From positions 182,431 through 246,430 of the forward strand of contig JBBDPM010000006.1 of assembly GCA_040876345.1 (NCBI GenBank): DNA of 64,000 nucleotides, in the 5' to 3' direction. Position 1 is the first letter of the stretch. Each line of letters opens with the position of its first letter. Under the pieces are notes generated by a model. The model worked only from the letters and a program-made list of their open reading frames with translations, was not told the origin of the DNA and made no database searches. Made by a program: the position numbers and the translations under genes. Positions 2,992 to 59,835 of this stretch are shown here, in pieces. Source of the stretch: Candidatus Woykebacteria bacterium. Lineage in GTDB: Bacteria; Patescibacteriota; Microgenomatia; Woykebacterales; RBG-16-39-9b.

Positions 2992-3076
2992 GAAACTATT
3001 ATACCAACATAAATCACTTTGTGATAATATTTGCTTGACGAGCAAGGAAAGAGCAAGGATCAACAGGAGGAGACCG

Positions 3077-3340
3077 ATGACAAATCAAAACTCACGAGCA
3101 CCGCGTTTCGCGGTCTGGAGTGTCTTCGTGCTATTACCTATGGTCATGGCTCTAGGAGTCCTAGCAATCATGCGGGACGGAACGTTCGGAGACCTACCAG
3201 TCTATGCCTACCCCATCGTCGGGTCAGTACTAGCGGTGGTGGTAGTGGCGATAGCGGCCTTCATGTTCAGGGTCTTCCTGGGAGACTTAGCCCCAGGAGC
3301 GAACAGTAGAACCAAGACGTGCAACGGATCCGCCAGCTAA
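3077..3340 (+). CDS. Small 2-TM membrane protein (hypothetical), on GC-rich island
   Basis: AGGAGG 6 nt upstream of ATG at 3077; two hydrophobic helices (WSVFVLLPMVMALGVLAI / IVGSVLAVVVVAIAAFMF). The ORF-track start at 2960 would overlap cysS. Confidence 0.45.
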   Translation: MTNQNSRAPRFAVWSVFVLLPMVMALGVLAIMRDGTFGDLPVYAYPIVGSVLAVVVVAIAAFMFRVFLGDLAPGANSRTKTCNGSAS

Positions 3341-3364
3341 CGCTGGTTAGGAAGGAGTCGGTCG

Positions 3365-4132
3365 ATGGATTCGCCAATACGACAGGTGGCTGAATTGCTG
3401 AGAGCATCCAGTAGCATCTTGTTCATCACCGGTGCTGGACTTTCGGCAGACTCGGGGCTCCCAACCTACCGAGGAATCGGTGGGTTATACGAGAAGAAAG
3501 TAACCGACGAGAAGATCCCGATCTACGAAGCCCTGTCAGGTAGGATGTTCCGCGAGGATCCAAGCGTGCTCTGGAGATACCTCGCCCAGGTGGAACAACC
3601 AAAGCGCAGTGCCAAACCGAATCGCGGACACGAGGTAATCGCTCAATTCGAGAGTCGAAAAGAGCGGGTGTGGGTCTTGACACAAAACGTCGACGGTTTT
3701 CACACAGCCGCTGGATCAAGAAACGTGATTGAGATCCACGGTAACATACACAACCTGATGTGCACGTCACCATTATGCGCCTACTCTGCACAGGTACAAG
3801 ACTACGCAGCGCTCCTCGAATTACCACCGAAATGTCCAGAGTGCAGAGGAGTCATAAGGCCAGATGTGGTGTTGTTCGGGGAAGAATTACCCGAACGTCA
3901 AGCCGCGGTGATGGAACGGGAGCTGGAGCAGGGCTTCGAAGTCATCGTCTCCGTCGGGACTTCGAGCGTGTTTCCCTACATCTTCGAACCAATTCTCGAG
4001 GCGGAGAGACGCGGTATCAAAACCGCCGAGATAAACCCTGCTGAAACTCAAATGTCGCCACTTGTCGACATCTGGATTGCTGAAAGAGCCGCAAAAGCTC
4101 TAGACGCGATCTGGGAGATCATGCGGAGTTAG
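3365..4132 (+). CDS. Sir2-family NAD-dependent protein deacetylase (CobB-like sirtuin)
   Basis: GAGLSADSGLPTYRG (sirtuin NAD motif), TQNVDGFH, catalytic HG (IEIHGNIH), Zn ribbon CTSPLC...CPECRG; GGAGT RBS; GC-rich. Confidence 0.85.
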   Translation: MDSPIRQVAELLRASSSILFITGAGLSADSGLPTYRGIGGLYEKKVTDEKIPIYEALSGRMFREDPSVLWRYLAQVEQPKRSAKPNRGHEVIAQFESRKERVWVLTQNVDGFHTAAGSRNVIEIHGNIHNLMCTSPLCAYSAQVQDYAALLELPPKCPECRGVIRPDVVLFGEELPERQAAVMERELEQGFEVIVSVGTSSVFPYIFEPILEAERRGIKTAEINPAETQMSPLVDIWIAERAAKALDAIWEIMRS

Positions 4133-4663
4133 TGCGATCTTAAGCCGGTAAGGATTGAGAGCGATGTGGATGCGGGTAAGGGTACTCATCTTACTAGCCT
4201 CATACCTCGGCGGTCAGCATAGGATTCTACACTAACGTACGCGACAAGGATGTGGACAGCTTAGTCCTGTCCTCTATCCTACTGACGGCTCTAATTGCGG
4301 CGGCAACCTGGTTCGTGAAAGACCAGCAGTAACAAACCCAGCCAAGGCTGGAGGAAAGGAGGGATGTGAGACGGGAAAAGTAGATCAACCATCAGGGCTC
4401 CCAAAAGGCTTCATCCCCCAGGAGCTTGCGCGTAGAGTCCGAATCTACCGCAGGATGGGCTACAGCTTTGAGTACATTGCCGACTACGTGTACACAAAGC
4501 GCCTCGGCCGGCCGGTCACGGCTGCTCAGCTTCGCAAGTTGCTGCGCTTTCTTAGGGTGCCCGTCCGAGCCAGTAGCATTAACGGTAAACACCCGCACTA
4601 GGTGCCGCGCGAGTCCCATCCTCTCGCGGCACCCCGTCTTAGATTCCACATCCAAGCTCAAGT

Positions 4664-5581: not shown

Positions 5582-6692
5582 AATAGCCTCCGTCTAAAAC
5601 TTATCTTAACCTATGAATTATACCCGTTTTATACGCATCAAAGCAAGTTGGGGTTAAAAAATGTGATTTGCGCGAGGCGGGACAAGGTAATTAAACCCAG
5701 TCCTCAACCTCGCGCAGAGTGCGGGGCGCAGTTCACAGGCTAGTGGCCCCGGAATAATCCTGGCGAGGAGCAACCCTTGGAGCCGACACGAAACAGATCG
5801 GGTCACCCCTCGCCTTGGTGGGGACAGATCTTGTAGCCCAGGGGAGATAAAGGCCCAATAATCTGCCCGGTGAGATCACATCCTGGGGCTCCTAGGTCTC
5901 AGAAGTGATCTTCACCTACGGATCAGTGTTCCTCTTTTGGGGCAGTTCTACCTCTCGTGGAGAGGAGTGAGGATCACTAACCCGAGAGCGTGGGTCGGAG
6001 GGCGGTTATACGGTGTCCCCGCGCCACCTAACAACCCACTTCCCCAACAAACTGCGGAGAAAGCTTGCAGCTTCCTTGCAGGTGCTCTCAAATTGATCTC
6101 CCGCCAATAATTACTTATATCTCAATTAAAAAGCTACCACAGGAAAAAGTCAATGATTAGGTTGTTTGGTTGGGGTGTGGGTTTATTTATAACAAGGTGG
6201 TTAAACAAATAGATCGAGGGCAAGCTTCCTGGCGGAGAACTTGCCCCCAAGCGGTCTTTCCTTGACCCAATTTCCTCCGCAACCGTTATGTCACACTACT
6301 TGACTTCCGTTCCATCTATCAGGATGAACGGTTGTGTAACGGCTGCGGCGGCTACGGCGGGCGGGCTAGGTGGCTACGTTGAGGACGAATGCAACGCATA
6401 CCACACCTCCTCTCCTGTGTGATGTCCCAGCGAGAGTGGAGGGGAGATTAGAGCGGTGGCTAAAGATCCCTCTCACTGAGTCGATCTTGATGCACGTAAT
6501 TCGCGGTCAACCTCCTACCGAGAAGTAGTTGTGCTTCCCTGGCTCGGTTCAATGAGGTTCATCTCTCGATGGGCGCACTCCTCCTTTCATCTGCTGCACG
6601 CTTGCCCTTCCTAACAAGACACGCTGCAGAGGGTCAACCTGACTTTACACTTATATTTCTTATGATTATGAAGATCAACGAACAAGATAAAT

Positions 6693-9212: not shown

Positions 9213-9278
9213 GAAAGAACGAAGTTAGGCCTCAAATAAACGCCAAAGGGCACCCGAAGCTTTAGCAAAGGGTGCCCC

Positions 9279-10241
9279 TCAAGAACCTTCTGGCCAGACT
9301 CGCGCCATCGGTATCCAACTCTCTGGAGCTTTCCGGATCTGCTCCTCAATTGGAACAAGCATGGCCATCGTTAGTGAAACTGGGTTGTCTTGATACTCGG
9401 CAGGATCGATTGGCGGGTGAAGTGTTGCCCTATATCTCCCCGCATCTTGCCTCTCCCAAGTACCCGGAATTACAAGACAACCTTTTGCCTTTAGGGCGAT
9501 CTTTGCTGCGCCGGTGGGCATTAGAGTAGGGCGGCCAAGAAAGGTCATTTCCGCCCCAGTACCCTGGATATCCCGATCGATCAGCATGACAACCACACCG
9601 CCATCACTGAGGCGCCTTCGCATCTCGACTAAAGTCTGGCGACTTAGGGGTCTAGCCTTGACACCTCCGCAGTTCTGAAGCTCCTCTGCCCTAGCCGCAA
9701 GCCTAGGACTTGGTATAGGCTCTATTGGGCAAAGCAGATCTACCCCCTCGGCCACCAGCTTGTGAGGAATTCTGTAGACACCCGCGAAGTGAGCACCGGC
9801 TATCAGCACTCCCCGCCCGGAAGCCTGAGCCTCTCTGAGGTACTCAATGCCCTCAAGTTGCACATCAGACCGGATACGCTCAAGATCTATCCTGGGAATC
9901 AGACCCATGTCGACCCATGTTCTTGTCGCCGCCCTTTGCGAGGCTCGAGCGCTCCGGCGCCAGGTCGATGGATCCTCAACTCCCTTCCCCTGCCAAACAC
10001 AGGCCATGTTAGCAGTTGTTTCACGGCGAACGGAGGGCGAAAGCCACCAAGTAACCTCGGCTACCACCGGGCAAAGAACTCCGTAGGACAATAGGCTGGG
10101 CAGGTATTCCACCAGGTACGAGAGTAGGTAGATGGCCCAGTTTCGCCAGGCAGCTGTCTGCCTTTTGTTTGCTCCTATCTTCACAGGCAATCCTCCCTTC
10201 CAGAAATGCGTGTCTTTCAGAAAGTTTGCTTGCCTGTGCAA
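9279..10241 (-). CDS. Lysophospholipid acyltransferase superfamily protein (HtrB/LpxL/PatA-like), GC-rich
   Basis: 320 aa; overall similarity to lipid A / PIM late acyltransferases (N-terminal membrane anchor, AGAHFAGVY region). About 57% GC versus about 40% in neighbours. Confidence 0.5.
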   Translation of the reverse strand: MHRQANFLKDTHFWKGGLPVKIGANKRQTAAWRNWAIYLLSYLVEYLPSLLSYGVLCPVVAEVTWWLSPSVRRETTANMACVWQGKGVEDPSTWRRSARASQRAATRTWVDMGLIPRIDLERIRSDVQLEGIEYLREAQASGRGVLIAGAHFAGVYRIPHKLVAEGVDLLCPIEPIPSPRLAARAEELQNCGGVKARPLSRQTLVEMRRRLSDGGVVVMLIDRDIQGTGAEMTFLGRPTLMPTGAAKIALKAKGCLVIPGTWERQDAGRYRATLHPPIDPAEYQDNPVSLTMAMLVPIEEQIRKAPESWIPMARVWPEGS

Positions 10242-10274
10242 ATTATATTAGATTTACTCAAAAAATGGAAACAT

Positions 10275-12642: not shown

Positions 12643-12705
12643 GATTTTGGGGTTCGGTGGCCCCATCCTTCAGCTCGCCAGGATAGGGCCCACCTATAAG
12701 TACGC

Positions 12706-13110
12706 TCAGACGTTCGCGAAGAACCTGAGCACGCACTCTTCTGCTTCGGCAAGATCACTCAGTGCCGAAGGTGTGTCACCACTGGCTATGTGTCGATCGG
12801 CGCTCACAAGCAGAGTCATTACCTGGTGCCAGCAGATGCGATGAAGACCCGCAAGCTCACCAGGAACCACCATTCTGCCTGGGCCGGTCTCCCAGCTAAT
12901 CCGATACCAACGTTTGGCCATTTGAGCAAGCCGCCCTCTTTCGGGCTCTGTGAGGCTAGCCTTTTTCAACAACTCTCGGGCGTGCTGTACACCGCTGATT
13001 ACCTCGATCGAGTACTTAATCATTACCTCTCGGTAGCCTGGCCCGATGAGTAAGCGTCGAAGAGCCCAGACTCCTAACACCGCTGCTGCCACGACTAACA
13101 GTTTCCGCAT
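12706..13110 (-). CDS. Hypothetical secreted/membrane protein on GC-rich island
   Basis: N-terminal hydrophobic signal MRKLLVVAAAVLGVWAL; about 60% GC. Confidence 0.35.
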   Translation of the reverse strand: MRKLLVVAAAVLGVWALRRLLIGPGYREVMIKYSIEVISGVQHARELLKKASLTEPERGRLAQMAKRWYRISWETGPGRMVVPGELAGLHRICWHQVMTLLVSADRHIASGDTPSALSDLAEAEECVLRFFANV

Positions 13111-13252
13111 TGCGAGCCCTCCTTTACTTCGAACGTCTCAAACCCTCCCGCTTGTCAGAAAATCACTAGATCTCTTGACTTAGTAAGAAATATACTAAAT
13201 GGAAAAAGGAAAGCAAATTATTCTCCACCTTTGCTACCGAAGCTAGAAGTAA

Positions 13253-15749: not shown

Positions 15750-15850
15750 AACTTTAGCTTAACAGTTAAATGAAGAGACTTTCAATAAGAGGAATCGAAG
15801 GCGAGGGTGCTAATCGAACACACCCACGCCTTATCCTGCTTCGAAGAGTG

Positions 15851-16006
15851 TTAGGGAGATCCCACGTTGACGGGTAACACAGTAATATCGACCGCTATAT
15901 CAACCCGCCCTTTCAGGATCTCCTCCACATCTGCCCCCATCCTCAGCACTCGCTCTACAAAAGCCTCCTTGACATCGTCAGCTAGGCATTCGATGAGCGA
16001 GCACAT
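15851..16006 (-). CDS. Small hypothetical protein (51 aa) on GC-rich island downstream of ybeY
   Basis: GAGGT 6 nt before ATG; MCSLIECLADDVKEAFVERVLRMGADVEEILKGRVDIAVDITVLPVNVGSP; below ORF-track size cutoff. Confidence 0.3.
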   Translation of the reverse strand: MCSLIECLADDVKEAFVERVLRMGADVEEILKGRVDIAVDITVLPVNVGSP

Positions 16007-16038
16007 GTAAGGACCTCGATACCCTAATGGGATAGCAA

Positions 16039-16530
16039 TTATTTTATTATCTCAACAACTTTTTTGGGGGAAAGGGAGTCAAGAATCTCATCTTCCAGTT
16101 TTTCCATATCTCTGGCTTCTTCTGGCTTTTCGTGGTCATATCCAAGGAGGTGCATCGTTCCGTGAACCACCAAAAGATTTGCCATGTCATCCACCAACAT
16201 ATTTTCTTTGGCGGCCCGATCAAGTAGCTGAGGATAAGAAATTAAAAGCTCACCTAAATTTAGATTTTTTTGATCTGGGGGGTTTATAAAATCAGCTGGC
16301 CTTGAATTGTCCAAAGTGTAAGGAAAGGCTAATACATCGGTTGGTGCATCTATACCGCGGAACTCCCGGTTCATTTTCTTCATTTTCCGGTCTCCAATAA
16401 CAGAAATTGCTGCCTCGGCTCTTCCCTTGACATTCATCTTTTCCAGGGTCCGTACACAAGGCAGAATAAGCTGCTTCCGGCTCAGAGGGTAGTGCGGCTC
16501 AACATAAACATCTACTTTATACATAGACAA
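16039..16530 (-). CDS. ybeY: Endoribonuclease YbeY
   Basis: HGTMHLLGYDHE zinc-binding H3xH5xH motif. Confidence 0.85.
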   Translation of the reverse strand: MSMYKVDVYVEPHYPLSRKQLILPCVRTLEKMNVKGRAEAAISVIGDRKMKKMNREFRGIDAPTDVLAFPYTLDNSRPADFINPPDQKNLNLGELLISYPQLLDRAAKENMLVDDMANLLVVHGTMHLLGYDHEKPEEARDMEKLEDEILDSLSPKKVVEIIK

Positions 16531-16777: not shown

Positions 16778-16846
16778 TAAATTTAAAAAAACACCCCCAG
16801 ACTTTAAATTTCAAATATCAAATTCTAATTTTTGGTTTTTAATTTA

Positions 16847-17158: not shown

Positions 17159-17185
17159 ACTTAATTAAACAACTAAAATTCTGAA

Positions 17186-23212: not shown

Positions 23213-23425
23213 GGTGCTATTCTAACTTGAAATTGGCAAAGATTCAATAAAGGGGTGTGGGCAGGGATTGCCTCACAGCTCGCCAATTTCCCCCGTGAAG
23301 GTCATACCGCTCCTCCTCACTCCCGTTATCAGATAACCGCCGCTCTCCTTTTCCGACACATGAACCGCCCGCACTCTCTTGACCTCCACAACCACACCGT
23401 CTGGCACTACCGAGTATGAGTCAAT

Positions 23426-23794
23426 CTAGCCATTACTTGGGCTGGTATCTATCGGCTTTTCGAAGTAGTAGGTTAACCCGCCAGTCGTGCAATCGCCACA
23501 CGCCAGTGTGACTGACCAGACTGCGTAAAGAGTACCGTCGCTCCGCAACTCGGCGGTGTTCCAGAGCGGCGGCGCTGATCTCGAATCGAAGAGCTTCGGT
23601 TCCACCCCTTCAGGATCGAAGGATAGGGCGAGGCTCTTTGTCAGATCCTCCGAGAGCTGCGGCACGCGGATTTGTTCCACTCGCTGAACCTTCTCAGGGT
23701 ACCGCTCCAAGTTAAGGAGCGTAACGAGTGCTAACGGTATCAGAATGGAGAGGGCCAGAACAGGACCAATCCCACCCAAGCCTGTGGGTTTCAT
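23426..23794 (-). CDS. Hypothetical membrane/secreted protein on GC-rich island
   Basis: N-terminal TM GPVLALSILIPLALVTLL; about 58% GC. Confidence 0.35.
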   Translation of the reverse strand: MKPTGLGGIGPVLALSILIPLALVTLLNLERYPEKVQRVEQIRVPQLSEDLTKSLALSFDPEGVEPKLFDSRSAPPLWNTAELRSDGTLYAVWSVTLACGDCTTGGLTYYFEKPIDTSPSNG

Positions 23795-23812
23795 ACTGCA
23801 TAACCGTCCCTC

Positions 23813-23989
23813 CTACTGTCTTCTCTGACCGGGTGAGTTGCGAGCGCGGTTTTGGTGTCTGTCCCGCCGACTCACCCGAGCTTGTGTGTCTCTCCTGTTG
23901 TTGCCGTTGGTAGTCCCCCGATTCGGCTTCTGGCCCCTGCGACCCCTCTTCGCCGGAACCTTCAGGCCACCTTTCTTACGCTTCTGCAT
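23813..23989 (-). CDS. Small highly basic peptide (58 aa), hypothetical
   Basis: GGAGG RBS immediately upstream of ATG at 23989; MQKRKKGGLKVPAKRGRRGQKPNRG...; 19 nt upstream of the 23794 gene. Confidence 0.3.
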   Translation of the reverse strand: MQKRKKGGLKVPAKRGRRGQKPNRGTTNGNNRRDTQARVSRRDRHQNRARNSPGQRRQ

Positions 23990-24071
23990 GGAACCTCCTT
24001 CTCCTTCCGTGCTGGTTGTTAGCTTGCGCTATTATATTGTTAACTGGGATTTTTTGTCAAACAAAGGGGAA

Positions 24072-26634: not shown

Positions 26635-26638
26635 AATA

Positions 26639-27259: not shown

Positions 27260-27527
27260 AGGGACGGCGAACCCCGTGAAAGTTTAACTGAAGTGGGGCC
27301 CCTCCTTTTCGCATTCCATAATATCAGCGGAATAAATCAAAAACAAGAGGATCAAAATAGGTCACTCTGTAGGATGTGTGGAGGACCGGGGCGCGCTAGG
27401 ACGGTTGTCCGCAAACAGCGCGTCCCGGTCCTCAAGGCGGGGGAGGGAATGTCTTTCTAGTTGTGCCCCTACCCCCACCAGTACCATGATGTTGGTGTGT
27501 TCCAGGTTGGCGCGGAAGTTTGCTGCT

Positions 27528-27851
27528 TTACTGCTTTGGGGCAGTGTAAATGGCGTGCGGACCATCTAGTCCAGCACCTTCCCTACCAACCACGATGATC
27601 TCCTCGCCCCTTTCGGCTGCTTCTGTGAACCTACTCAATAGACCCTTGCTCCGCCATTCGACTTCTGCTCTAGAGTCTATCAGGTTATAGTGAGTTGCTA
27701 CCCTACCATCTGGAAGAGTCACTCTACTCCACACCCGCGCAGGATGAAGAGGGGCTTGAAAGTAGCGGACCGCGCAGGTTCCTTCTGGCAATTCAACAAT
27801 GAGAACGCCGCTCTTCTCATCGCTAAGTTGCGGTGGTTCGTCTGTGCCCAC
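27528..27851 (-). CDS. Hypothetical protein (GC-rich island), in frame with the upstream ORF across a single TAA
   Basis: GTG start directly after the TAA of 27852..28169 in the same frame; protein-like composition. Confidence 0.25.
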   Translation of the reverse strand: MGTDEPPQLSDEKSGVLIVELPEGTCAVRYFQAPLHPARVWSRVTLPDGRVATHYNLIDSRAEVEWRSKGLLSRFTEAAERGEEIIVVGREGAGLDGPHAIYTAPKQ

Positions 27852-28169
27852 TTACCATCGCCTCCCATATCCATAAACGGCCATCTGCCGCGCTCCAAGA
27901 GCACCACCAACTCGAGCGTGTGTGCTCGCCAAGATCACTCTTGTCCACTCATTTTGTGCCGCCGCGACGCTTCTCGCCATCGCTGCGTTGAAGCTCTCGT
28001 CTCCCTCCTGGTGCACTTCGTTGAAGTGAGTCCACACCCCACTACTGTGAGGAAAGTGGTATGTCGGTGGTGGCGGCCACAGTATACCACCACGATAGCG
28101 GATACGGTCTTTCCTCCCATCCACCGAGGAAACTACAACCCTGCCGCGTCCACGATTCCTGGATGCCAA
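27852..28169 (-). CDS. Hypothetical protein (GC-rich island)
   Basis: 105-aa ORF; possibly the N-terminal part of a disrupted 211-aa gene. Confidence 0.25.
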   Translation of the reverse strand: MASRNRGRGRVVVSSVDGRKDRIRYRGGILWPPPPTYHFPHSSGVWTHFNEVHQEGDESFNAAMARSVAAAQNEWTRVILASTHARVGGALGARQMAVYGYGRRW

Positions 28170-28654
28170 CTACGAACCTCCCTTTCGTTCGCGCTGATCC
28201 CTACCTGGGGTCCTTCCCGATCAAGGCTTTAATAGCCCGATTTGGATCTCTCAAAAAACAAATCGCGCCCTTCAAGCGCTTTATTAAAATTATAACGAAA
28301 AATCCCCAGGCGTTCAACAACTCAAGCTTGGGTTCGGCGAACCGCGGTAAGAGTTTCCATTCTCTTGCCGCGGCTCAGTCCACGCATCATCCCCAACTAA
28401 CGGATGTGCCCTTCCGCCAATTAGGAGACTGGCTGCCGACGAGAAGCTAATCTGACAGCCTCATCAACAGCCCAGTCTCCGATCTTCCTTGGTGCTGCAA
28501 CACACAGAAAGAAGCTCGGATCTTCCTTCCATGGGCTTCATGCGATGGATTTCCCCTCCCCATCTCCGGTCTCTTTGATCCGCCAGAGCTGTTTTTGAAC
28601 CCTCAAAAACAGATCCCGCTTATCAATCTTTGTTTTGTATATTACACCTCTCTG

Positions 28655-28712
28655 TCCAAAAAATCCAAAACCCCGAGGACTTATGCAGGCAATGCCCACG
28701 GCCTCGGGGTTT
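28655..28712 (-). terminator. Rho-independent terminator (minus strand)
   Basis: 11-bp perfect inverted repeat AAACCCCGAGG/CCTCGGGGTTT followed on the minus strand by TTTTGGATTTTTTGG, 27 nt after the stop of the 28739 gene. Confidence 0.5.
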
Positions 28713-28738
28713 GGCAGCTGACTTCTCTCCCACGTTCC

Positions 28739-29152
28739 TCACTCTTTCACGCCGATTGCAACCATCCCACCCGGCAATAGAACGGCGCAGGTCTCGTCCT
28801 TCCTCGTCTTCCGAAGAGCAAACGCCGCCACACTGACCAAGTCGTCGCCATTGGCCATTGTCGGCACCTGTGCGACTAGCAAGCACTTGAAGACGCCTGG
28901 CCCAGGAATCTCGATCGTGTCGCCGATCTCCATTTCCCGATCGTAGCTCGCAAACCGTACCCGTCGGCCGGTTATAGTGATCGAGCTAACACCCGTCAGT
29001 GGCTTGACCACATGAAGGCTTGACCGGTGCAAGCTTGGACTGGTCTCACCAGTTCCTTGCAAAAGCCTAGTTAAGGGGCCCATCTCCACCCTCCTTTCCA
29101 ATGTATTACTACTCTCACCTTGAGCAGTCCAACCTGCCTTCAACAAAAGCAA
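28739..29152 (-). CDS. Hypothetical protein (GC-rich island)
   Basis: ORF with downstream terminator; possible shorter start at MGPLTRLL. Confidence 0.35.
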   Translation of the reverse strand: MLLLKAGWTAQGESSNTLERRVEMGPLTRLLQGTGETSPSLHRSSLHVVKPLTGVSSITITGRRVRFASYDREMEIGDTIEIPGPGVFKCLLVAQVPTMANGDDLVSVAAFALRKTRKDETCAVLLPGGMVAIGVKE

Positions 29153-29236
29153 GTTGCACTAATCAAGTAAGGATCGACGGAGCCACACCTGGTGAAACAC
29201 CATGCGTGGCTCCGCAGAAGTGACCTGGGGTCTGGG

Positions 29237-29599
29237 TTAGCCGGTTGCGGGCATAGGCGCGACAGCGATCCTCGTACCGCGGGCGGTGGTCTCAATAATG
29301 ACGGCCACCACCTTGCGGAGCTGCTCGAAGCGTTCGAGAAGCTGGCGAACGATGTCTGGCTGCGTCGTACAGCTCACCTCGACAACATGCTCGCATCGCA
29401 GCCCGTTGCCCTCGAAGACGATGCCACCACCCACTTCCAGGGCGCCCTTCTTCTCAGGCTCCGCGAAGACGACCGTCAGACCTCCCATAGTGATGGATGC
29501 CCCCGGGCCCTGCCGATTCACTTTCAGTGCCAAACGTTCCCTCCTCCATGAGTTACCGGAGACTAGCGCTGCGGGTCCTTCTACCCCACATCTCTGCAC
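29237..29599 (-). CDS. Hypothetical protein (GC-rich island)
   Basis: Protein-like composition, AT-rich promoter region upstream (29600-29800). Confidence 0.35.
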   Translation of the reverse strand: MQRCGVEGPAALVSGNSWRRERLALKVNRQGPGASITMGGLTVVFAEPEKKGALEVGGGIVFEGNGLRCEHVVEVSCTTQPDIVRQLLERFEQLRKVVAVIIETTARGTRIAVAPMPATG

Positions 29600-29815
29600 T
29601 CCGAAGGCTTTGACTAGCCCAAGCTACCTTTTAGGTAATCCTAAAAAACAGTTTGCACAAGTCAAACATTCTGTATTTTACACTAATTTGTAAAGTAATA
29701 TGCAAAAACCTAAAATTCCCCCCAATCTTTAAACAAACTCAGCCCAAATAAGCAAGAAGGGCAGGGGAATATTTCATCTCTCTGCCCTTCCGGGAATCCT
29801 TTCCGTAGAGTGTGG

Positions 29816-29974
29816 CTACCTTGCCTTGTCAGCGCCTTCCATCAACCCTTCCACTTTGCTTATTGCATCCATGGCTGGGTCTAGGAAGACAGGGAGCGCG
29901 AAAACGGCGATGATGACTGCTAATGCTAGCAGCAATCCAACCGTCAACAGTCCCCCTGAGGAACCACTTCTCAC
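29816..29974 (-). CDS. Small membrane protein (52 aa)
   Basis: GGAGG then 8 nt then GTG; single TM GLLTVGLLLALAVIIAVFALPVF; below ORF-track cutoff. Confidence 0.35.
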   Translation of the reverse strand: MRSGSSGGLLTVGLLLALAVIIAVFALPVFLDPAMDAISKVEGLMEGADKAR

Positions 29975-30116
29975 GGTATTCACCTCCAGAAAAAGTAGTG
30001 TCGAATTTCTTCGACCCTCGACTGAAATCCACCTTCCAGAAGATGGCCTTCAGTTGAGCCCTGGGGGAACACGCATCCGAAGATTTGTGTCCCCCAGGGC
30101 GGCGGCAGGAAGTTGT

Positions 30117-30710
30117 CTACTGGCTGGGGGCGGCGGTCGGCTGGACGGGTTTGTTGAAGCGCCTCCGCAGTGCGGAAAAGAACGCCTTCAACCCAGTCCG
30201 TATTCCATACCTGTACCGGTGGACGACCACACCCGCCCCAAACGCGACGATACTTGCGGCTGCGAGGGCGGTTCTCCAGTGTGGCCAATCGTTGTCGGTT
30301 GGGACCCGAACGGCCCGAACCACAACCGGTTGACCGACCCACTGCCACGGAATCTCGAGCTCCACACCCGGCAGAAGTGGGCAATTCCCGAAGGGAATCC
30401 CCGTCTGCTGGGCAGCCCGAGAGATCGTCTCGACGTTGTTGCCGGTATAGAGCAGCTGATGCCACTCTCCCGGCCTACCAAGCGCCGTGGCGATCCTCGA
30501 GCATGTATCGTTGTCACCGACGACCCACGTGCCGCCGGGCGGCAGCATGCCGCCGAGCACCTCGTCCTCCTGGTTCTCCTGCGCACTCGCGCTGTGGGCG
30601 AAAGTGAACAGGATGATGATGAGCGCTACTAACCCCACGATCAGCGCGAGTAGCAGGGCTCCATTCCCTCTCTGGTAACCCGGTTGGCGCATGTAACCTC
30701 CTTGCTGCAT
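30117..30710 (-). CDS. LysM-domain membrane protein
   Basis: N-terminal TM, LysM-like WVVGDNDTCSRIATALGRPGEWHQLLYTGNNVE, C-terminal TM. Confidence 0.45.
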   Translation of the reverse strand: MQQGGYMRQPGYQRGNGALLLALIVGLVALIIILFTFAHSASAQENQEDEVLGGMLPPGGTWVVGDNDTCSRIATALGRPGEWHQLLYTGNNVETISRAAQQTGIPFGNCPLLPGVELEIPWQWVGQPVVVRAVRVPTDNDWPHWRTALAAASIVAFGAGVVVHRYRYGIRTGLKAFFSALRRRFNKPVQPTAAPSQ

Positions 30711-31109
30711 ACTTCCTGCCTGCCGAAACTAATTACCAGATATCCTGATAGCCAGATTCGGCAGACAAACTTAATTTTCAAAGAACGAAAGCTCTTATCT
30801 TACAGCAATGGACATTATCTGCTAAATCACCCTGGTGACTCGGCCTCAAATGCCCACGAAATAGTACCTATTATATCAGAAAATGCTGGAAAAGTCAAAT
30901 ACTATAAGTCGCTACATAACTTCGAGACCAGCGAGCTTCTTGTAGCTCAAGGAGTGATCGCAGAGCGCGAAGCGATCTATTTATCAGGTATTCTCGCGCC
31001 TTGCGCTAGCCAACTTTTGGCTAGATAAGGACTCTTATTGAAGGGCTAGTAGTGGTGGGGTGGCGCGCTTCCTCAGATGCTACGCGCCTGCCCCAAAATG
31101 ACCTCCGCC

Positions 31110-31583
31110 TCACTTCTCCTGAGCTTCTCCCCTGATCGCGATGGCGTAGAGAAGATCGTCGACTTGCCGCTCACTCTCCGGGTCCGGACCAGTCTGCCCT
31201 ACCTCGAGATAGTTCCTCAGCCTCTGCACTCGAGGCGCTAAGTCCGCATCCGTAACACCCTTTCCCAGAGTAACCGCAGTGCTCAGGTATCGGAGGACGA
31301 GGAACACTCGCTCCCTATCGAGAGCATCGTAGTAATGGTAAACCCCATCTTCCCGATCCGCCTCGATCATCAGCATCGTGCGATCGAAGACACCAAGCGC
31401 CCAGTTCGCCGTCTTTTCATCAAACTGCAACTGGATCAAGTGACCAACGTTGATTGCTTCGCTTTCTAGGCGGAGCTCCTCCCTGAGTTGGATGTTTTCC
31501 TGCCGCGTGTCATGCCAGGCAACCCCGAAGATAATTGCGCTGGCAGTTGTGATTGCCGCCAACGCTGATAGGAACAGGCTCAT
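31110..31583 (-). CDS. Hypothetical membrane-anchored protein (GC-rich island)
   Basis: N-terminal TM MSLFLSALAAITTASAIIFGVAW, 157 aa. Confidence 0.4.
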   Translation of the reverse strand: MSLFLSALAAITTASAIIFGVAWHDTRQENIQLREELRLESEAINVGHLIQLQFDEKTANWALGVFDRTMLMIEADREDGVYHYYDALDRERVFLVLRYLSTAVTLGKGVTDADLAPRVQRLRNYLEVGQTGPDPESERQVDDLLYAIAIRGEAQEK

Positions 31584-31960
31584 CGTTGTTTCCCTCCTTC
31601 CGTGAACCAGTCCCCGCCGTCCAGGACGTTTGAAAGAATATTAACGCTTATGCACTTAATGGTCAAGAAATTCATTAATAGAAAAATGGTGAAAAAAGCT
31701 GTAGGCGGCGCGTGCTCCGTGAGGAAACTCGCGCCGCACCAAACGTTGCTGGCCAGGTTTTCAGAAGGTAGTTCCGTCAGACGCACCTTCGGGGACCGGA
31801 GTCGGCGTTTCGTACGCGGCGCAGGGATCGAATATAGGTCAAGAGATTGGTTTGGCTACGTTTGGGGCACTTCTTCTTTAGTCTGAGGCTTTGTCCGAGC
31901 TCATCCACTTACTTAAATACTCTTATTTACTTTTATTCTTCGCTGATTTATACTTTTGTC

Positions 31961-34485: not shown

Positions 34486-34606
34486 TTAAATATTAACAGT
34501 TCTGTAAAGGATTAAAACCCAACTCTCTTGACTAGCCGTTGCTTGCACGCTAAAATGTTTGCCGGAAACGGCATCGTAAAGAGATCTGGAAGAGCAAGGA
34601 GGATCT

Positions 34607-35278
34607 GTGGTCCAGCAAAGCATCCCTAAAACTCGACGGCAAGACCTTTTCGTTCGCAACGGCAACACTGCCCCCACAACTCCAACACTGCTACAGCTGG
34701 CGGGGGAACCTGACGGACTCCGCGAGGACCTTTTCACCGATTTCTGGAGGCCATGGATCGCTTTCGGATGCGGAGATGGACGTTGGGTAGCCATAACGGA
34801 TTTCATGGTGGCTGCTCGGAACGCTGGCGGTACTGATCAACCCTCACCACTGGGCGGAATTCGCAAAGTGGCGGAGTACCTACGGGCAGGTGATAAATCA
34901 GCCTTAAGGCTGGTCGTGGACGAGATTGACTTCGCTCATGATCACCACGGAGTAGTTGCAGTTCAACTCATTGCTCACCCACTCTGTGGAGCGACAAGAG
35001 TTGAGGTCTGTAAAGCAATTCCTGAGGCAAGCTCGATCTACAGGAGCCCAACGAAGGGCGATCCCCAACTCTTTTACTCCACCATGATGGCGGAGCTGGG
35101 AATACAACGGTCTGACTTCGACAAGGTGCGGCGCTGGATATTCCAAACCTTCCCGTTCATCGTCGCTGTCCAGTACCTCAGAGTCACTAAGTATCGTCTG
35201 ACCCTCTTCAGCGACCACGAACTCGCAGTCGCAAAGGCTGTGCAGGAACTCAAGTCGCAAGGCAACTGGACGGAGTAG
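34607..35278 (+). CDS. Hypothetical protein (223 aa) on GC-rich island
   Basis: Protein-like composition; followed by a 13-bp perfect hairpin at 35296-35327. Confidence 0.35.
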   Translation: MVQQSIPKTRRQDLFVRNGNTAPTTPTLLQLAGEPDGLREDLFTDFWRPWIAFGCGDGRWVAITDFMVAARNAGGTDQPSPLGGIRKVAEYLRAGDKSALRLVVDEIDFAHDHHGVVAVQLIAHPLCGATRVEVCKAIPEASSIYRSPTKGDPQLFYSTMMAELGIQRSDFDKVRRWIFQTFPFIVAVQYLRVTKYRLTLFSDHELAVAKAVQELKSQGNWTE

Positions 35279-35295
35279 AGGTAGGTAGCGTGGGG

Positions 35296-35327
35296 GCATG
35301 GTGTTTTTAGCGGAAAACACCATGCCT
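35296..35327 (+). terminator. Hairpin terminator after the island gene
   Basis: GGCATGGTGTTTT-TAGCGG-AAAACACCATGCC perfect 13-bp stem. Confidence 0.35.
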
Positions 35328-35552
35328 CAGGTCCGTACCTGTTTAGATTGAACAAACCAAAACCCAAAACTTTTACTTCGTTTTTATACCCATCAAAGAA
35401 AGCAGCGACCCCACTTTTGCAGCCTCAATTCCCAGAACAGCAGCCAAAGACATACTATGGGCGGAGATCAAGTTTGATCTCCTGTCAATGACAAAATTTC
35501 CGATCGTGAAAAGTGTCATGACTAGGTATAGATTTTGGACTCTTGGTAAAAA

Positions 35553-45286: not shown

Positions 45287-45316
45287 CCTTGGCCATTCCT
45301 AAAAATTTAGACAAAA

Positions 45317-47410: not shown

Positions 47411-47466
47411 TTGGCAGGATGTAACTAAATTATGACTTTAGTGATTAGCTTGTGTCAACGAATAGT

Positions 47467-50568: not shown

Positions 50569-50631
50569 AGGCAGGAATTAATTAAATTATGGGTTTGTTA
50601 GGTACAAATGTCAAATTATGAAAAATTTACT

Positions 50632-55461: not shown

Positions 55462-55882
55462 ACACCTGCTTTATCCCCCGTAGCTTGCTTGACCCACGAA
55501 GCTTTAGGCGAATGGGGACTGTCCTTCGTTTTTGACCTAACTTGTTAATAATGTAACACCCTAAAATTTGAATATCAACCAGCAGATTTTTGAACTAGAT
55601 CTAAACTCAGCTAAATAGGGCTAAAATAGATCATTTTTAAATTAATTGACTCTTGGTGTTACCCTATAAAAAGTTTGGCGGTTGCACGATACCGATAAAC
55701 CCCCACCAGCGCAGGAAGGAGACTTATCATGGAAGAACCAGAAACTGCGGAACAATTGCTCGAGAGGCGTCTCGATTAGATAACTGAGCAAAAGCGACAA
55801 GGACATCCTCGAGCGCTCAACCCGACCACTGCCGCTGCAAGTTGAGCTCGGCGAACTACTCGTCCAAGCCGATAAGGATCAT

Positions 55883-56176
55883 GTGAGAGAGCACTGGGCA
55901 AAAACGCTGCTTTGGTTCTTGTCCATCGCGTCACTGATGAACATCTTTGCGTGGCTGGGGCTTCCGAACCTGGATAAACTTTTCAGTGGAACGGCCTTGA
56001 TCACTAACGAAGCGGACTCAGTTGCCGCGGCAACAATAATGCCTTTCGCGATTGGCGCCATTCTTGCCTTCGCGATTTACATCCCGAGTCTGTTACCAGG
56101 AAGTGAAGGCCGACACCTTAGGCAACTACTAGCGCCGAGGGATCCCGAGAAGGAAGAGGCACCGAAGTCTGACTAA
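55883..56176 (+). CDS. Hypothetical membrane protein on GC-rich island (start uncertain, possibly frameshifted)
   Basis: Two TM helices. The reading frame is open from 55784 with no ATG. A strong AGGAAGGAG RBS precedes ATG 55729 in another frame, which encodes only 16 aa. Confidence 0.3.
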   Translation: MREHWAKTLLWFLSIASLMNIFAWLGLPNLDKLFSGTALITNEADSVAAATIMPFAIGAILAFAIYIPSLLPGSEGRHLRQLLAPRDPEKEEAPKSD

Positions 56177-56487
56177 GCCCCAAACCTAGATCAGACGCTA
56201 GTCAATACAGCCCTAGAACAGCCAACAGCAAAACCAACACAGGTCCGTGCGAGCGAACTTCGCAAGCACGGCTCTGCTCTTTCTCACTTTTTCCATCAAT
56301 TATTGATACTAATTAAAAAACTCAAAAAGCCCTGACACATAAATCAAGGCTGGCAATAACAATGAAAATATTATGACAATATATCCGATCGTAGTTTTTG
56401 TCATAATATAATCTAATACCCAGGCTAATTATAAATTTTTTGAGGGTGGTATTTTTAACTAATAATTTATGCTATTATCATCTGGAT

Positions 56488-58620: not shown

Positions 58621-58637
58621 TATATCAAAATATAAAT

Positions 58638-58961
58638 ATGACTATCAAAAGTAAACCCTATGATACAGAAAAAGCCGGGTTTAAAAAAATTGGCGACGTA
58701 ATTAAAGAGAGAATTGAGAAAAAAGGCCCAGTTTACGCAAAATATGAGTTCCAAGACTACGGCGTGAGGCTTTCGGAAGAATTGCACGACCAAAAGCACA
58801 AAGCCCTCTATATTAAATTTGCCAAAGAAAAGCCCCGCCCGCTTCTGGAAGAAGCCAGAGCGTTTGCCCGCGATTACAATACCAAATCTCTAAACCGCGG
58901 CAAAATCTTCATGTGGAAGCTAGCGGATCTTGAGAAAGGCGCAAAAACTAAAAAGCGTTAA
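58638..58961 (+). CDS. Hypothetical protein (107 aa)
   Basis: Clean ORF, Lys-rich, no motif recognised. Confidence 0.45.
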   Translation: MTIKSKPYDTEKAGFKKIGDVIKERIEKKGPVYAKYEFQDYGVRLSEELHDQKHKALYIKFAKEKPRPLLEEARAFARDYNTKSLNRGKIFMWKLADLEKGAKTKKR

Positions 58962-59234
58962 AGAGCACGACCCTACTCCTAGAGTCACGCTCCCTCCCAA
59001 GAAAACCTTGCTTCGACAAACTCAGGATAAACAAGATTTGCTTAGGGAATAGAACCGCCTAAGGCCAGATTGCGGTTCTCACTATTTACTGCTGGCACAG
59101 TTTCCCTACTCGCCGGCGATGCCAGTATCGCTGACAGAGATATTGTTAACCTCAACCCGACAAAATTCCTGGATCGTCTCGAGGACCAGATGTTCGACCA
59201 GCCTGTTGAAGGGGTCGAACAGCCCAAAGGCTGA

Positions 59235-59835
59235 CACAACGATCCCGCTGTTCACGATACCACCGGGGTTTTAAGAAGGTTTAATCTAACCAGAAAGAAA
59301 AGACAGGCTAAGTACTACATCCCACTCCCAAGACCACTCTCAAATTGTCCAGGAGCCTTAGTGGAGGTGGACACCATCCACTTCGTTAGACCAAACACTA
59401 GTCGGTTTTATATCTACACTTTAATTGATGTTTATTCCCGGTTAGCTTATGCGGAGTACCCTCCTAAGCTTTCTCAGAAAAACTCTCTAAAATTTGTTAA
59501 GGCGGCTCAGAAGAAGTTTGTCTTTAAGTTCTTTACAGTCCAAACCGACAATGGACCAGAGTTTAAGGACCACTTTAACATTGAGCTTAAGAGAAACAAG
59601 ATTACTTTAAGACATTCCCGGGTCAGGACCCCTAACGATAATGCCCATCTGGAGAGATTTAACCGCACTTTACAAGAAGAGTGTTTCCAAGGAAGACGAC
59701 CTAATGAAGAAGGGCTAACGGGCAACTCAGGTCCTATTTAACTTATTACAACAATGTTAGACTACACCTATTAATTAACCTTCAGACACCTACTCAATTT
59801 GTTTCTAAGGTCCTGACGTAATTACGTATAATTAG
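59235..59835 (+). mobile_element. Degraded IS transposase (rve/DDE integrase core) remnant with frameshifts
   Basis: DDE core: ALVEVDTIHF (D), VQTDNGPEF (D), NAHLERFNRTLQEE (E). N-terminal HTH region missing. C-terminal YYNNVRLHLLINLQTPTQFVSKVL lies in a different frame. Confidence 0.6.

What the first reader, a model, noticed from the sequence alone, without database searches (positions are those of the whole stretch)
3060..59240. At least nine discrete GC-rich islands interrupt an AT-rich housekeeping backbone
Backbone genes (cysS, corA, dnaX, mfd, rpsB, topA, guaA and others) are about 38-42% GC. Interspersed intergenic blocks are about 55-60% GC, each wedged between conserved backbone genes: 3060-4700 (2-TM protein plus Sir2), 5745-6600, 9230-10245 (acyltransferase between ybaB and recR), 12650-13150, 15760-16010, 23220-24060, 27260-31600, 34490-35550 (between topA and guaA), 55700-56300 (after mreB). 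They encode mainly small membrane or hypothetical proteins and generate spurious overlapping ORFs on both strands. Such a regular mosaic is atypical. It implies either repeated horizontal acquisition from a high-GC donor into intergenic sites, or a chimeric assembly.
Basis: seen in the sequence. Interest (0 to 1): 0.6.

Follow-up and report, generated by a model that had tools for sequence, protein, structure and literature searches.

The report
GC-rich accessory islets, Woykebacteria chromosome
The GC-rich blocks are real parts of one chromosome of an uncultured, small-genome bacterium (Candidatus Woykebacteria): small accessory inserts in a few permissive gaps between AT-rich core genes, found in relatives too, so not an assembly error, though why they stay GC-rich is unexplained.

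Summary
A two-state segmentation finds ten GC-rich segments (54-60% GC) in a 39-43% GC backbone. Eight of the nine listed blocks are confirmed; 15760-16010 is not GC-rich.

The window is from a 586-kb contig of a Candidatus Woykebacteria MAG. An independent Logan assembly is identical over 20.6 kb that includes the largest island. Relatives from six other samples carry GC-elevated DNA in the same gaps between core genes. Two relatives have empty gaps. A chimeric assembly is effectively excluded.

The islands hold three kinds of content:
- a CobB/Sir2 deacylase whose nearest homologues are in 64%-GC Phycisphaerae, so horizontal transfer is supported;
- clade-restricted envelope proteins (an acyltransferase, a LysM membrane protein, small TM proteins);
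- gene-free, hairpin-rich stretches, one about 1 kb long with strand-specific folding (z = -8.7).

No integrase, att repeats, phage or plasmid similarity, or Rfam hit was found.

One result does not fit simple transfer. The LysM protein sits in the same slot in two further genomes and stays GC-rich there, although synonymous sites are saturated. The islands also share one dinucleotide signature. Recent transfer followed by decay toward host composition therefore does not explain everything. Moderately interesting.

The parts
3091..4638 (.). Island 1 (55.0% GC), in the gap between cysS and corA.
   Evidence: HMM segmentation. The same gap is GC-elevated in L083, L084, L092 and L125.
3077..3340 (+). 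Small two-TM protein (87 aa), no family hit.
   Evidence: ORF and translation. No Pfam, PHROG, PADLOC or NCBIfam hit. L092 has an 83-aa two-TM ORF at the same position, with no detectable sequence similarity.
3365..4132 (+). CobB-type Sir2 NAD-dependent protein deacylase (255 aa), GC3 0.59.
   Evidence: PF02146, E = 4e-41. NF001753, 273.6 bits against a cutoff of 243. Best outside hits are 57-63% identical, from Phycisphaerae and Omnitrophota. The nearest homologue lies in a 64%-GC genome. L092 carries a Sir2 in the same slot, 56% identical over 84 aa.
4133..4663 (.). Gene-free GC-rich tail of island 1. Codon-like GC periodicity in two phases but no intact ORF. Possible gene remnant.
   Evidence: No gene called. 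Frame plot spread 0.23-0.28 with a phase change near 4373.
5670..6643 (-). Island 2: 974-nt non-coding stretch between yqeY and corA. Candidate structured RNA on the minus strand.
   Evidence: No ORF over 78 aa, and none appears under any single stop reassignment. No codon periodicity. No Pfam hit in six frames. No Rfam hit at E<=1. Whole-stretch fold z = -8.67 on the minus strand against -2.46 on the plus strand. Sub-stretch 5669-6000, minus strand: z = -5.4, 0 of 100 shuffles as stable.
6650..6678 (-). Promoter-like TTGATC-17-TATAAG just after the yqeY stop codon, at the AT-to-GC boundary of island 2.
   Evidence: Read from the sequence. Inference only. The consensus scan did not list it because position 6 of the -10 hexamer is G.
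5656..5715 (-). Terminal GC-rich hairpin of island 2 (GCGCGAGG...CCTCGCGC, 5715-5670), followed by a T-run (5661-5656).
   Evidence: Relatives have a hairpin plus T-run at the same place, just upstream of the corA promoter (alignment A2).
5617..5646 (-). corA promoter (TTGCTT-18-TATAAT), conserved in all six aligned genomes. It shows that island 2 lies outside the corA transcription unit.
   Evidence: Alignment A2: invariant CTTG...TATAAT columns. Coordinates.
9241..10162 (.). Island 3 (56.7% GC). Essentially one gene.
9279..10184 (-). Lysophospholipid / lipid-A-type acyltransferase (301 aa), GC3 0.55.
   Evidence: PF03279, E = 3e-26. Best NCBIfam match is phosphatidylinositol mannoside acyltransferase, E = 1e-28, below the cutoff. 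Only 2 homologues at E<=1e-8 among 5.8e9 proteins. Present next to recR in L083 (43% aa identity) and L125.
12649..13151 (.). Island 4 (56.7% GC), between mfd and DUF3465. Contains the ORF 12706-13110 (minus strand, 134 aa).
   Evidence: The ORF has coding-like GC1/2/3 of 0.63/0.46/0.58 but NCBI did not call it. The same slot holds small GC-elevated ORFs in L083, L084 and L124.
23252..24029 (.). Island 5 (57.3% GC), between tmk and a NUDIX gene. Contains the ORF 23426-23794 (minus strand, 122 aa, N-terminal TM segment).
   Evidence: Called as a gene by Logan but not by NCBI. Fold z is near 0, as for coding sequence.
27360..31830 (.). Island 6: a composite of three GC-rich blocks (27360-29628, 29778-30725, 30923-31830) separated by AT-rich spacers, lying between dcd and HicB/topA. 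It has five small minus-strand genes (27528-27851, 28739-28933, 29237-29533, 30117-30710, 31110-31583) and hairpin-rich spacers.
   Evidence: About 42% of the island is in called genes. There are 16 inverted repeats, with arms up to 27 nt. Windows with z from -4 to -8.6 occur in the spacers.
30117..30710 (-). Membrane-anchored LysM-like protein (197 aa), GC3 0.75. A clade-restricted family.
   Evidence: 11 hits in 1.84e9 representatives, of which about 8 are true family members. The alignment has invariant Cys70 and Cys110. AlphaFold model: pLDDT 92-96 for residues 60-125; top PDB fold hits are LysM domains, probability 0.96-0.97, weak E of about 0.08. Family members sit in the same topA-dcd slot in L128 and L129.
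34561..35341 (.). Island 7 (54.9% GC), between topA and guaA. Two mutually exclusive overlapping ORFs: 34904-35314 (minus, 136 aa) and 34607-35278 (plus, 223 aa).
   Evidence: NCBI calls the minus-strand ORF and Logan calls the plus-strand ORF. No family hit.
55677..56279 (.). Island 8 (53.7% GC), after mreB. Contains the ORF 55883-56176 (plus strand, 97 aa, TM protein).
15750..16040 (-). A 290-nt gene-free gap between ybeY and pth that folds into three long hairpins.
   Evidence: Fold z = -4.14, 0 of 200 shuffles as stable. No Rfam hit. The same gap is 48 nt in L124.

Best explanation
The blocks are genuine, contiguous parts of a Candidatus Woykebacteria (Patescibacteria/CPR) chromosome. They are small accessory ('flexible-genome') islets that occupy a limited set of permissive gaps between conserved core operons: mfd|DUF3465, ybaB|recR, yqeY|corA, corA|cysS, tmk|NUDIX, dcd|topA, topA|guaA and after mreB.

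Each islet is made of its own small transcription units. These are GC-rich bodies separated by AT-rich spacers that look like promoters, with hairpin terminators. They encode mostly envelope-type accessory proteins (a LysM membrane protein, an acyltransferase, small TM proteins) plus a CobB/Sir2 deacylase. They also contain gene-free, hairpin-rich stretches.

The most likely source of the GC-richness is foreign origin. DNA from GC-richer donors is captured at sites where insertion does not break a gene, and is then gained, lost or replaced lineage by lineage. Some of it decays into non-coding remnants.

Shown: contiguity, the slot structure, presence/absence among relatives, foreign-like composition, and non-CPR nearest relatives for Sir2. 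Inferred: that transfer explains the GC-richness of all islands, and the route of entry (no mobility machinery is present; uptake by natural competence followed by illegitimate or flank-homology recombination is a guess).
For: Contiguity: the Logan contig is identical to the NCBI contig over 20.6 kb.

Taxon and synteny: the CorA hit is named Woykebacteria. Gene order is conserved in L083, L084, L085, L092, L124, L125, L128 and L129.

Same slots, different contents: blastn and tblastx align only the core genes. L083 and L084 are 80-85% identical in core DNA, yet ybaB|recR holds the acyltransferase plus a Clp_N protein in one and three small ORFs in the other.

Empty sites: the yqeY|corA gap is 34 nt in L089. 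ybaB|recR is 3 nt, yqeY|corA 153 nt and corA|cysS 123 nt in L124.

Foreign-like composition: pooled dinucleotide distance between islands and backbone is 118, against a null maximum of 60. Island genes have GC1/2/3 of 61.5/45.4/61.7 against 51.6/39.1/38.8 for the backbone. The genome GC implied by position 2 (69%) exceeds that implied by position 3 (55%), as expected for a gene from a GC-rich donor drifting toward host composition (amelioration).

Core composition is uniform: core GC3 is 0.33-0.43 whatever the expected expression level, and that includes the giant clade-specific surface proteins. So 0.39 looks like the genome's own equilibrium.

Sir2: nearest homologues are Phycisphaerae and Omnitrophota at 57-63% identity. 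The donor-like context is 64% GC with GC3 0.87, against 0.59 here and 0.39 in the core.

Literature: Patescibacteria MAGs are reported to carry hundreds of genomic islands and transferred genes (up to 13% of genome length), with Omnitrophota among the partners (PMC12455944).
Against: No integrase, transposase, tRNA target, or flanking direct or inverted repeat above chance. No PHROG or PADLOC hit. No nucleotide match to phages or plasmids. No viral-contig relative.

Most island ORFs have no homologue outside the clade.

The LysM family sits in the same topA-dcd slot in three genomes. There, 4-fold sites are at random identity (0.09-0.32 against 0.25-0.28 expected) yet stay GC-rich (GC4 0.55-0.70, against 0.41-0.45 in topA). 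A long-resident gene should have converged on core composition.

Individual islands are more alike in dinucleotide signature than equal-sized backbone chunks are (94 against 124; island-backbone 154). That is not expected from many unrelated donors.

For Sir2, the window copy is not closer to the Woykebacteria copy in L092 (56.6%) than to Phycisphaerae (60%) over the 85 aa available. One versus several acquisitions is therefore unresolved.
Confidence: 0.5

Rival explanations
1. Endogenous two-compartment composition. The islands are long-term native DNA of the clade. A local force keeps these transcription units GC-rich against the genome's AT-biased equilibrium. Candidate forces are GC-biased gene conversion at recombination-prone accessory slots, or selection on the transcripts, such as for RNA structure or stability, or for rare-codon use that keeps envelope proteins at low expression.
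For: LysM-family members lie in the same slot in the window, L128 and L129. They keep GC3 of 0.75, 0.56 and 0.62 although synonymous sites are saturated. The acyltransferase lies next to recR in the window, L083 and L125. The islands share one dinucleotide signature. GC-elevated slot genes occur in every Woykebacteria locus examined. Bacterial gBGC has been proposed (PMC4450053).
Against: Boundaries are sharp and coincide with gene ends. AT-rich spacers persist inside island 6. Core genes flanking the slots are not GC-enriched. Fast-evolving giant surface proteins have core-like GC3. The L125 acyltransferase has GC3 of only 0.43. Sir2 has clear non-CPR relatives. No known bacterial mechanism produces 15-20 point GC differences at a 0.5-2 kb scale.
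Confidence: 0.27
2. The gene-free GC-rich parts are genes for structured non-coding RNAs, or long structured 3' extensions of the upstream operon. This applies above all to island 2 (5670-6643, minus strand) and the spacers of island 6. It is the same logic as searching for 'GC-rich intergenic regions in an AT-rich genome'. This reading is compatible with either origin above. It covers only about a third of the island DNA.
For: Non-coding island windows have a mean minimum z of -3.5 and 56% are below -3. The backbone gives -0.71 and 5%, island coding sequence -1.26, and ordinary 64%-GC coding DNA -0.86 and 2%. Island 2 is strand-specific: -8.67 on the minus strand against -2.46 on the plus strand. 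The yqeY|corA gaps of L083, L084 and L085 are also structured on the sense strand only, with z from -3.7 to -6.1. Island 2 is bracketed by a promoter-like site and a hairpin plus T-run, and relatives show a terminator at the same place. Long GC-rich IGRs are an established predictor of ncRNAs (PMC6429828, PMC11109978).
Against: No Rfam family at E<=1. There is no sequence conservation between relatives beyond the roughly 200-nt corA promoter region, so no covariation test is possible. No shared motif among the gene-free stretches. The slot is empty in L089, L124 and L125, so any function is dispensable. In island 6 both strands fold about equally well, as expected for simple terminator hairpins. 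The 5' half of island 2 is only weakly structured, z = -2.4.
Confidence: 0.35
3. Chimeric assembly or contamination: GC-rich reads from another organism were spliced into a Woykebacteria contig.
For: Only the abrupt compositional switches themselves.
Against: Two assemblers give the identical sequence over 20.6 kb, covering 6 junctions. About 20 junctions all fall between intact, syntenic core genes. Six other samples show the same slots occupied by GC-elevated DNA. Island genes have positional homologues in relatives.
Confidence: 0.02
4. Remnants of integrated prophages, plasmids or other mobile elements, possibly using a different genetic code, which would explain the apparent lack of genes.
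For: A HicAB toxin-antitoxin pair abuts island 6. Small ORFan genes are typical of mobile DNA.
Against: No PHROG hits. No match in phage or plasmid collections. No viral-contig relatives. No integrase or repeats. The islands share no sequence with each other. Reassigning TGA, TAG or TAA opens no long ORF in island 2.
Confidence: 0.06

Closest known systems
Genomic islands and islets at HGT hotspots between core genes. Reported for Patescibacteria in PMC12455944. The hotspot concept in other bacteria is recalled from memory.
   Same: Atypical composition. Located between conserved core genes. Presence and absence, and different cargo, in the same slot among relatives. Accessory and envelope functions. 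One gene with out-of-phylum nearest relatives.
   Different: Very small (0.5-4.5 kb) and very dense (about 16% of 64 kb). No integrase, tRNA or att repeats. GC-richer than the host, whereas acquired DNA is usually AT-richer. Low coding density. Some cargo is clade-restricted, old, and still not converged on host composition.
GC-rich intergenic regions as predictors of structured ncRNAs in AT-rich genomes. This is the GC-IGR pipeline (PMC6429828, PMC11109978). The earlier work on AT-rich hyperthermophiles is recalled from memory.
   Same: Island 2 is a 1.1-kb gene-free IGR that is 10-15 points GC-richer than the genome. It has strongly negative, strand-specific folding z-scores.
   Different: No conservation or covariation is available. 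No Rfam family matches. Most of the island DNA is protein-coding, so this explains only part of the mosaic.
Amelioration of horizontally acquired genes: the gradual drift of a foreign gene toward host base composition (Lawrence & Ochman model, recalled from memory).
   Same: Sir2 GC3 (0.59) lies between the donor-like value (0.87) and the host value (0.39). Pooled island GC2 implies a richer source than GC3 does.
   Different: LysM-family members in the same slot remain GC-rich in three genomes despite saturated synonymous sites. The model does not predict this.
GC-biased gene conversion in bacteria (PMC4450053).
   Same: It would raise GC at synonymous and non-coding sites in recombination-prone regions, and it would give all islands one common signature.
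   Different: Reported effects are a few GC3 points, not 20. Recombination rates were not measured here. Flanking core genes are unaffected.

Membership tests
Horizontally acquired genomic island | Base composition and oligonucleotide signature differ from the host genome | tested here: met
   54-60% GC against 39-43%. Pooled dinucleotide distance 118 against a null maximum of 60. GC3 0.62 against 0.39.
Horizontally acquired genomic island | Sporadic presence among close relatives at the same chromosomal site | tested here: met
   Empty slots in L089 and L124. Different cargo in L083 and L084, which are 80-85% identical in core DNA.
Horizontally acquired genomic island | Mobility or integration signatures (integrase or transposase, tRNA target, flanking direct repeats) | tested here: not met
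   No such genes. The tRNAs lie only at 62.9-63.7 kb. Flanking repeats are no longer than the chance expectation.
Horizontally acquired genomic island | Cargo genes have nearest relatives outside the host lineage | tested here: inconclusive
   Met for Sir2 (Phycisphaerae and Omnitrophota, 57-63% identity). Not met for the acyltransferase and the LysM family, which appear clade-restricted. The other ORFs have no homologues to test.
Structured non-coding RNA gene (GC-rich IGR type) | Long region without coding potential | tested here: met
   Island 2: no ORF, no codon periodicity, no six-frame Pfam hit, no gain from recoding.
Structured non-coding RNA gene (GC-rich IGR type) | Folding significantly more stable than shuffled controls, and strand-specific | tested here: met
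   z = -8.67 (minus strand) against -2.46 (plus strand). Sub-stretch 5669-6000: z = -5.4. A GC-rich coding control shows no such effect.
Structured non-coding RNA gene (GC-rich IGR type) | Conserved structure supported by covariation across homologues | not testable with these tools
   No alignable homologues. Relatives' gaps share only the corA promoter region.
Structured non-coding RNA gene (GC-rich IGR type) | Match to a described RNA family | tested here: not met
   Rfam 15 at gathering thresholds, and at E<=1 over the regions containing islands 1-7: only tRNAs and chance-level hits.
Structured non-coding RNA gene (GC-rich IGR type) | Evidence of transcription | not testable with these tools
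   Only sequence-level promoter-like and terminator-like sites.
Assembly chimera | Junctions not reproduced by independent assemblies or in related genomes | tested here: not met
   Logan and NCBI contigs are identical over 20.6 kb. Slots are occupied in relatives from six other samples.
Assembly chimera | Coverage or read-pair discontinuity at the junctions | not testable with these tools
   No read data were available.
Prophage or plasmid remnant | Homology to phage or plasmid proteins or DNA | tested here: not met

The most novel reading that the evidence does not exclude
Woykebacteria chromosomes keep two base-composition compartments over long evolutionary time. One is an AT-rich core at about 40% GC. 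The other is a set of small accessory transcription units at 50-60% GC that share one dinucleotide signature. The GC-rich compartment would be held up by a local force, either GC-biased gene conversion at recombination-prone slots or selection on the transcripts, rather than by recent import. Some of these units, such as the ~1-kb unit at 5670-6643, would be fast-evolving structured RNAs of a new kind. That would amount to a bacterial, kilobase-scale analogue of isochores.
Probability: 0.2. Interest if true: 0.75.

Novelty: new variant of a known kind. Interest (0 to 1): 0.48.

Why it matters
Patescibacteria have tiny genomes that are assumed to be streamlined. Here about one sixth of a 64-kb stretch is accessory DNA that is compositionally foreign and partly non-coding, packed into a handful of reusable gaps between core operons.

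If the islands are imports, they map where and how these presumed symbiont bacteria take in foreign DNA without any visible mobility machinery.

If the GC-richness is maintained locally, as the LysM-family members in the same slot suggest, the locus gives a clean natural test of what sets GC content in bacteria: mutation, selection or biased conversion. Core genes a few hundred bases away serve as internal controls.

The gene-free, strongly folding stretches are also concrete candidates for new large RNAs in a phylum whose RNA repertoire is poorly known.

Tried and rejected
- rRNA or other known RNAs as the cause of the GC-rich blocks. Rfam at gathering thresholds and at E<=1, plus ARAGORN, found only 4 tRNAs outside the islands.
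- A repeated mobile element. The islands share no nucleotide or translated similarity and no enriched k-mers.
- att sites or target-site duplications. The longest flanking direct or inverted matches are 7-9 nt, against a null mean of 8.9 and a null maximum of 14.
- Alternative genetic code. Reassigning TGA, TAG or TAA does not open long ORFs in island 2.
- Pseudogene relics in island 2. A six-frame Pfam scan was empty (one search failed on stop codons).
- Defence systems around Sir2. No PADLOC hit; the protein is an ordinary CobB-type deacylase.
- Phage or plasmid origin. PHROGs, blastn against phages and plasmids, and two IMG/VR scans were all negative.
- Core AT-richness caused by translational selection. 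Core GC3 is uniform across genes expected to be highly and lowly expressed.
- The genome-contig scan with RecR was a poor choice. RecR is so conserved that the 80 loci returned came from many phyla, and only distant relatives were useful.
- The metagenome scan with CorA added just four useful loci: L089, L090, L092 and L093.
- A conserved RNA in the yqeY|corA gap. The alignment showed only the corA promoter, 5' UTR and an upstream terminator to be conserved.

Full report
OBSERVATION. The window is 44.6% GC. A two-state HMM, consistent with the sliding profile, separates a backbone at 39-43% GC from ten GC-rich segments at 54-60%. These are 3091-4638, 5670-6643, 9241-10162, 12649-13151, 23252-24029, 27360-29628, 29778-30725, 30923-31830, 34561-35341 and 55677-56279. 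Together they cover about 10.2 kb, or 16% of the window. An eleventh segment (63057-63318) is two of the four tRNA genes found at 62.9-63.7 kb. His 27260-31600 block is three sub-blocks split by AT-rich spacers. His 15760-16010 block is not GC-rich (46-48%). The overlapping ORFs on both strands are real and are what GC-rich DNA produces by chance.

SOURCE AND ASSEMBLY. Exact-protein look-ups place the window on NCBI GCA_040881185.1, contig JBBEDR010000006.1 (586 kb). The CorA protein is named Candidatus Woykebacteria. A Logan assembly of run SRR27977661 (135-kb contig) is base-for-base identical over 20,621 bp spanning island 6, island 5 and their junctions. Every junction lies at the end of an intact core gene. 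Read-level evidence could not be examined. A chimera that reproduces about 20 junctions in two assemblers, and that mirrors the layout of relatives, is not credible.

RELATIVES. CorA homologues led to syntenic loci from other samples:
- L083 (JGI 3300041077), L084 and L128 (GCA_004196275.1), L085 (SRR24804371);
- L089 and L092 (Ga0209542), L124 (GCA_040876265.1);
- L125 (ERZ27256953), L129 (ERZ28564264).

Gene order is conserved: mfd-DUF3465-dnaX-ybaB-recR-AAA kinase-yqeY-corA-cysS-pilins, and topA...dcd-dcd-dcd-thyA. In most of these genomes the same gaps contain GC-elevated DNA (0.50-0.64) against cores of 0.35-0.45. Only core genes align between the window and its relatives, whether by blastn or by tblastx. 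The one exception is the acyltransferase. L083 and L084 are 80-85% identical in core DNA yet differ completely in slot cargo. Some relatives have empty slots: yqeY|corA is 34 nt in L089, and ybaB|recR is 3 nt in L124. One caution applies. Even between L083 and L084, 4-fold sites are only 50-55% identical. Unalignable non-coding DNA therefore cannot by itself separate replacement from divergence. The differences in gene content can.

WHAT THE ISLANDS CONTAIN.
(a) Recognisable genes. There is a CobB-type Sir2 deacylase (PF02146; NF001753 above its cutoff). There is also a lysophospholipid / lipid-A-type acyltransferase (PF03279).
(b) Small proteins without family hits. Many have TM segments. The largest, at 197 aa, belongs to a real but tiny family: 11 hits, about 8 true members, in 1.84e9 representatives. 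It has invariant cysteines and a confidently modelled central domain. The best PDB matches of that domain are LysM domains, with probability 0.96-0.97 but weak E-values. It is read here as a membrane-anchored LysM protein.
(c) Gene-free DNA. This comprises 4133-4663, 5582-6692, and more than half of island 6.

Island genes show coding-type GC1/2/3 patterns. Island 2 shows none.

COMPOSITION. Pooled island genes have GC1/2/3 of 61.5/45.4/61.7, against 51.6/39.1/38.8 for 37 backbone genes. Backbone GC3 is uniform at 0.33-0.43. This holds for ribosomal and translation genes, for repair genes, and for the four giant clade-specific surface proteins alike. About 0.39 therefore looks like the genome's own synonymous equilibrium, and the islands look foreign to it. 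The dinucleotide signature separates pooled islands from the backbone (118, against a null mean of 31 and maximum of 60). Individual islands resemble each other more than equal-sized backbone pieces do (94 against 124; island-backbone 154).

ORIGIN. Sir2 is the clear case for transfer. Its best hits outside the clade are 57-63% identical proteins of Phycisphaerae and Omnitrophota. The nearest sits among ordinary metabolic genes in a 64%-GC genome with GC3 0.87. The window copy (GC3 0.59) lies between that value and the core. A Sir2 also sits in the same slot in L092, but only 85 aa are available there, and they do not resolve one acquisition from two.

The rest is less simple. The acyltransferase has only two homologues at E<=1e-8 among 5.8e9 proteins. 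It lies next to recR in the window, L083 and L125. LysM-family members lie in the same topA-dcd slot in the window, L128 and L129. Between these genomes, 4-fold sites of both topA and the LysM gene are at random identity. Even so, the LysM gene keeps GC4 at 0.55-0.70 while topA stays at 0.41-0.45. If these genes were inherited vertically, their GC-richness is a maintained state and not a fading import.

No integrase, att repeat, phage, plasmid or defence signature was found.

STRUCTURE IN THE GENE-FREE PARTS. I scanned 300-nt windows on both strands against dinucleotide shuffles. The results:
- non-coding island windows: mean minimum z = -3.5, with 56% below -3;
- backbone: -0.71, with 5% below -3;
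- island coding sequence: -1.26;
- ordinary 64%-GC coding DNA: -0.86, with 2% below -3.

Island 2 is the strongest case. The whole 974 nt gives z = -8.67 on the minus strand against -2.46 on the plus strand. The 3' third (5669-6000) forms five long hairpins with z = -5.4. The 5' half is weak, at -2.4. The island begins at a promoter-like TTGATC-17-TATAAG just after the yqeY stop codon. It ends in a GC-rich hairpin plus T-run, immediately before the corA promoter, which is conserved in six genomes. The equivalent gaps in L083, L084 and L085 also fold strongly on the sense strand only, and they end in terminator-like hairpins. No Rfam family matches, no motif is shared, and no covariation test is possible. 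In island 6 both strands fold equally well, and the signal comes from local inverted repeats that look like terminators between small genes.

INTERPRETATION. Three things are firm. The mosaic is real. It is a property of the lineage and not of this assembly. The islands are accessory transcription units in permissive gaps between core operons.

Most likely (about 0.5), their composition reflects foreign origin with lineage-specific gain, loss and decay. This matches what is reported for Patescibacteria in general (PMC12455944). The main rival (about 0.27) is a local force that keeps these units GC-rich. It is suggested by the LysM-family members in the same slot and by the common signature. 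gBGC (PMC4450053) or selection on the transcripts are the candidates. The structured-RNA reading (about 0.35 for island 2) is compatible with either origin.

VERDICT. This is a real and moderately unusual feature. It is a new variant of the familiar genomic-islet pattern: very small, dense and GC-richer than the host, without mobility genes, partly non-coding and strongly folding. One result is truly puzzling, namely persistent GC-richness at saturated synonymous sites, and it deserves a population-genetic test.

Noticed in passing
window 5582-5660 (minus strand); L083 9880-10000, L084 9880-10000, L092 2440-2565: The corA genes of six Woykebacteria share a promoter (CTTGCTTT-N17/18-TATAAT). 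In the relatives, but not in the window, there is also a 5' UTR hairpin GACACATC...GATGTGTC just before the Shine-Dalgarno sequence. This may be a Mg2+-responsive or attenuator-type leader.
   Followed up: partly
window 15750-16040 (minus strand): The 290-nt gene-free gap between ybeY and pth folds into three long hairpins (z = -4.1, 0 of 200 shuffles as stable). There is no Rfam hit. The same gap is 48 nt in L124.
   Followed up: partly
window 25496-27259: Three tandem dCTP deaminase/dUTPase-family genes (179, 157 and 206 aa) lie next to thyA, a NUDIX gene and tmk. The triple dcd-thyA arrangement is conserved in L129.
   Followed up: no
window 31961-32415 (plus strand): A HicB/HicA toxin-antitoxin pair lies between island 6 and topA. 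In relatives (L084, L124) the pair sits at a different place.
   Followed up: no
window 34607-35314: Two long ORFs overlap on opposite strands (223 aa on plus, 136 aa on minus). NCBI annotates one and the Logan gene caller the other. Both have coding-like GC phase, so the true gene is undecided.
   Followed up: partly
window 38357-50568 (minus strand): Four consecutive giant proteins (1230, 1050, 697 and 1033 aa, with Big_7/Big_13-type domains). Their GC2 is unusually high (0.47-0.49) but their GC3 is core-like.
   Followed up: no
L083 2810-3169: An AT-rich gene of the '23S rRNA intervening sequence protein' family (PF05635) is inserted between dnaX and ybaB in this relative only.
   Followed up: no
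window 50401-51000 and 16800-17400: Strongly AT-rich stretches (30-33% GC). They are the opposite extreme of the islands. One contains overlapping 144-aa and 127-aa ORFs on opposite strands.
   Followed up: no
window 8289-9212 and L083 4955-5941: The ybaB|recR slot also holds a core-like (AT-rich) beta-lactamase-family gene in the window, and a GC-rich Clp_N-domain protein in L083. The slot therefore mixes both compositions.
   Followed up: no
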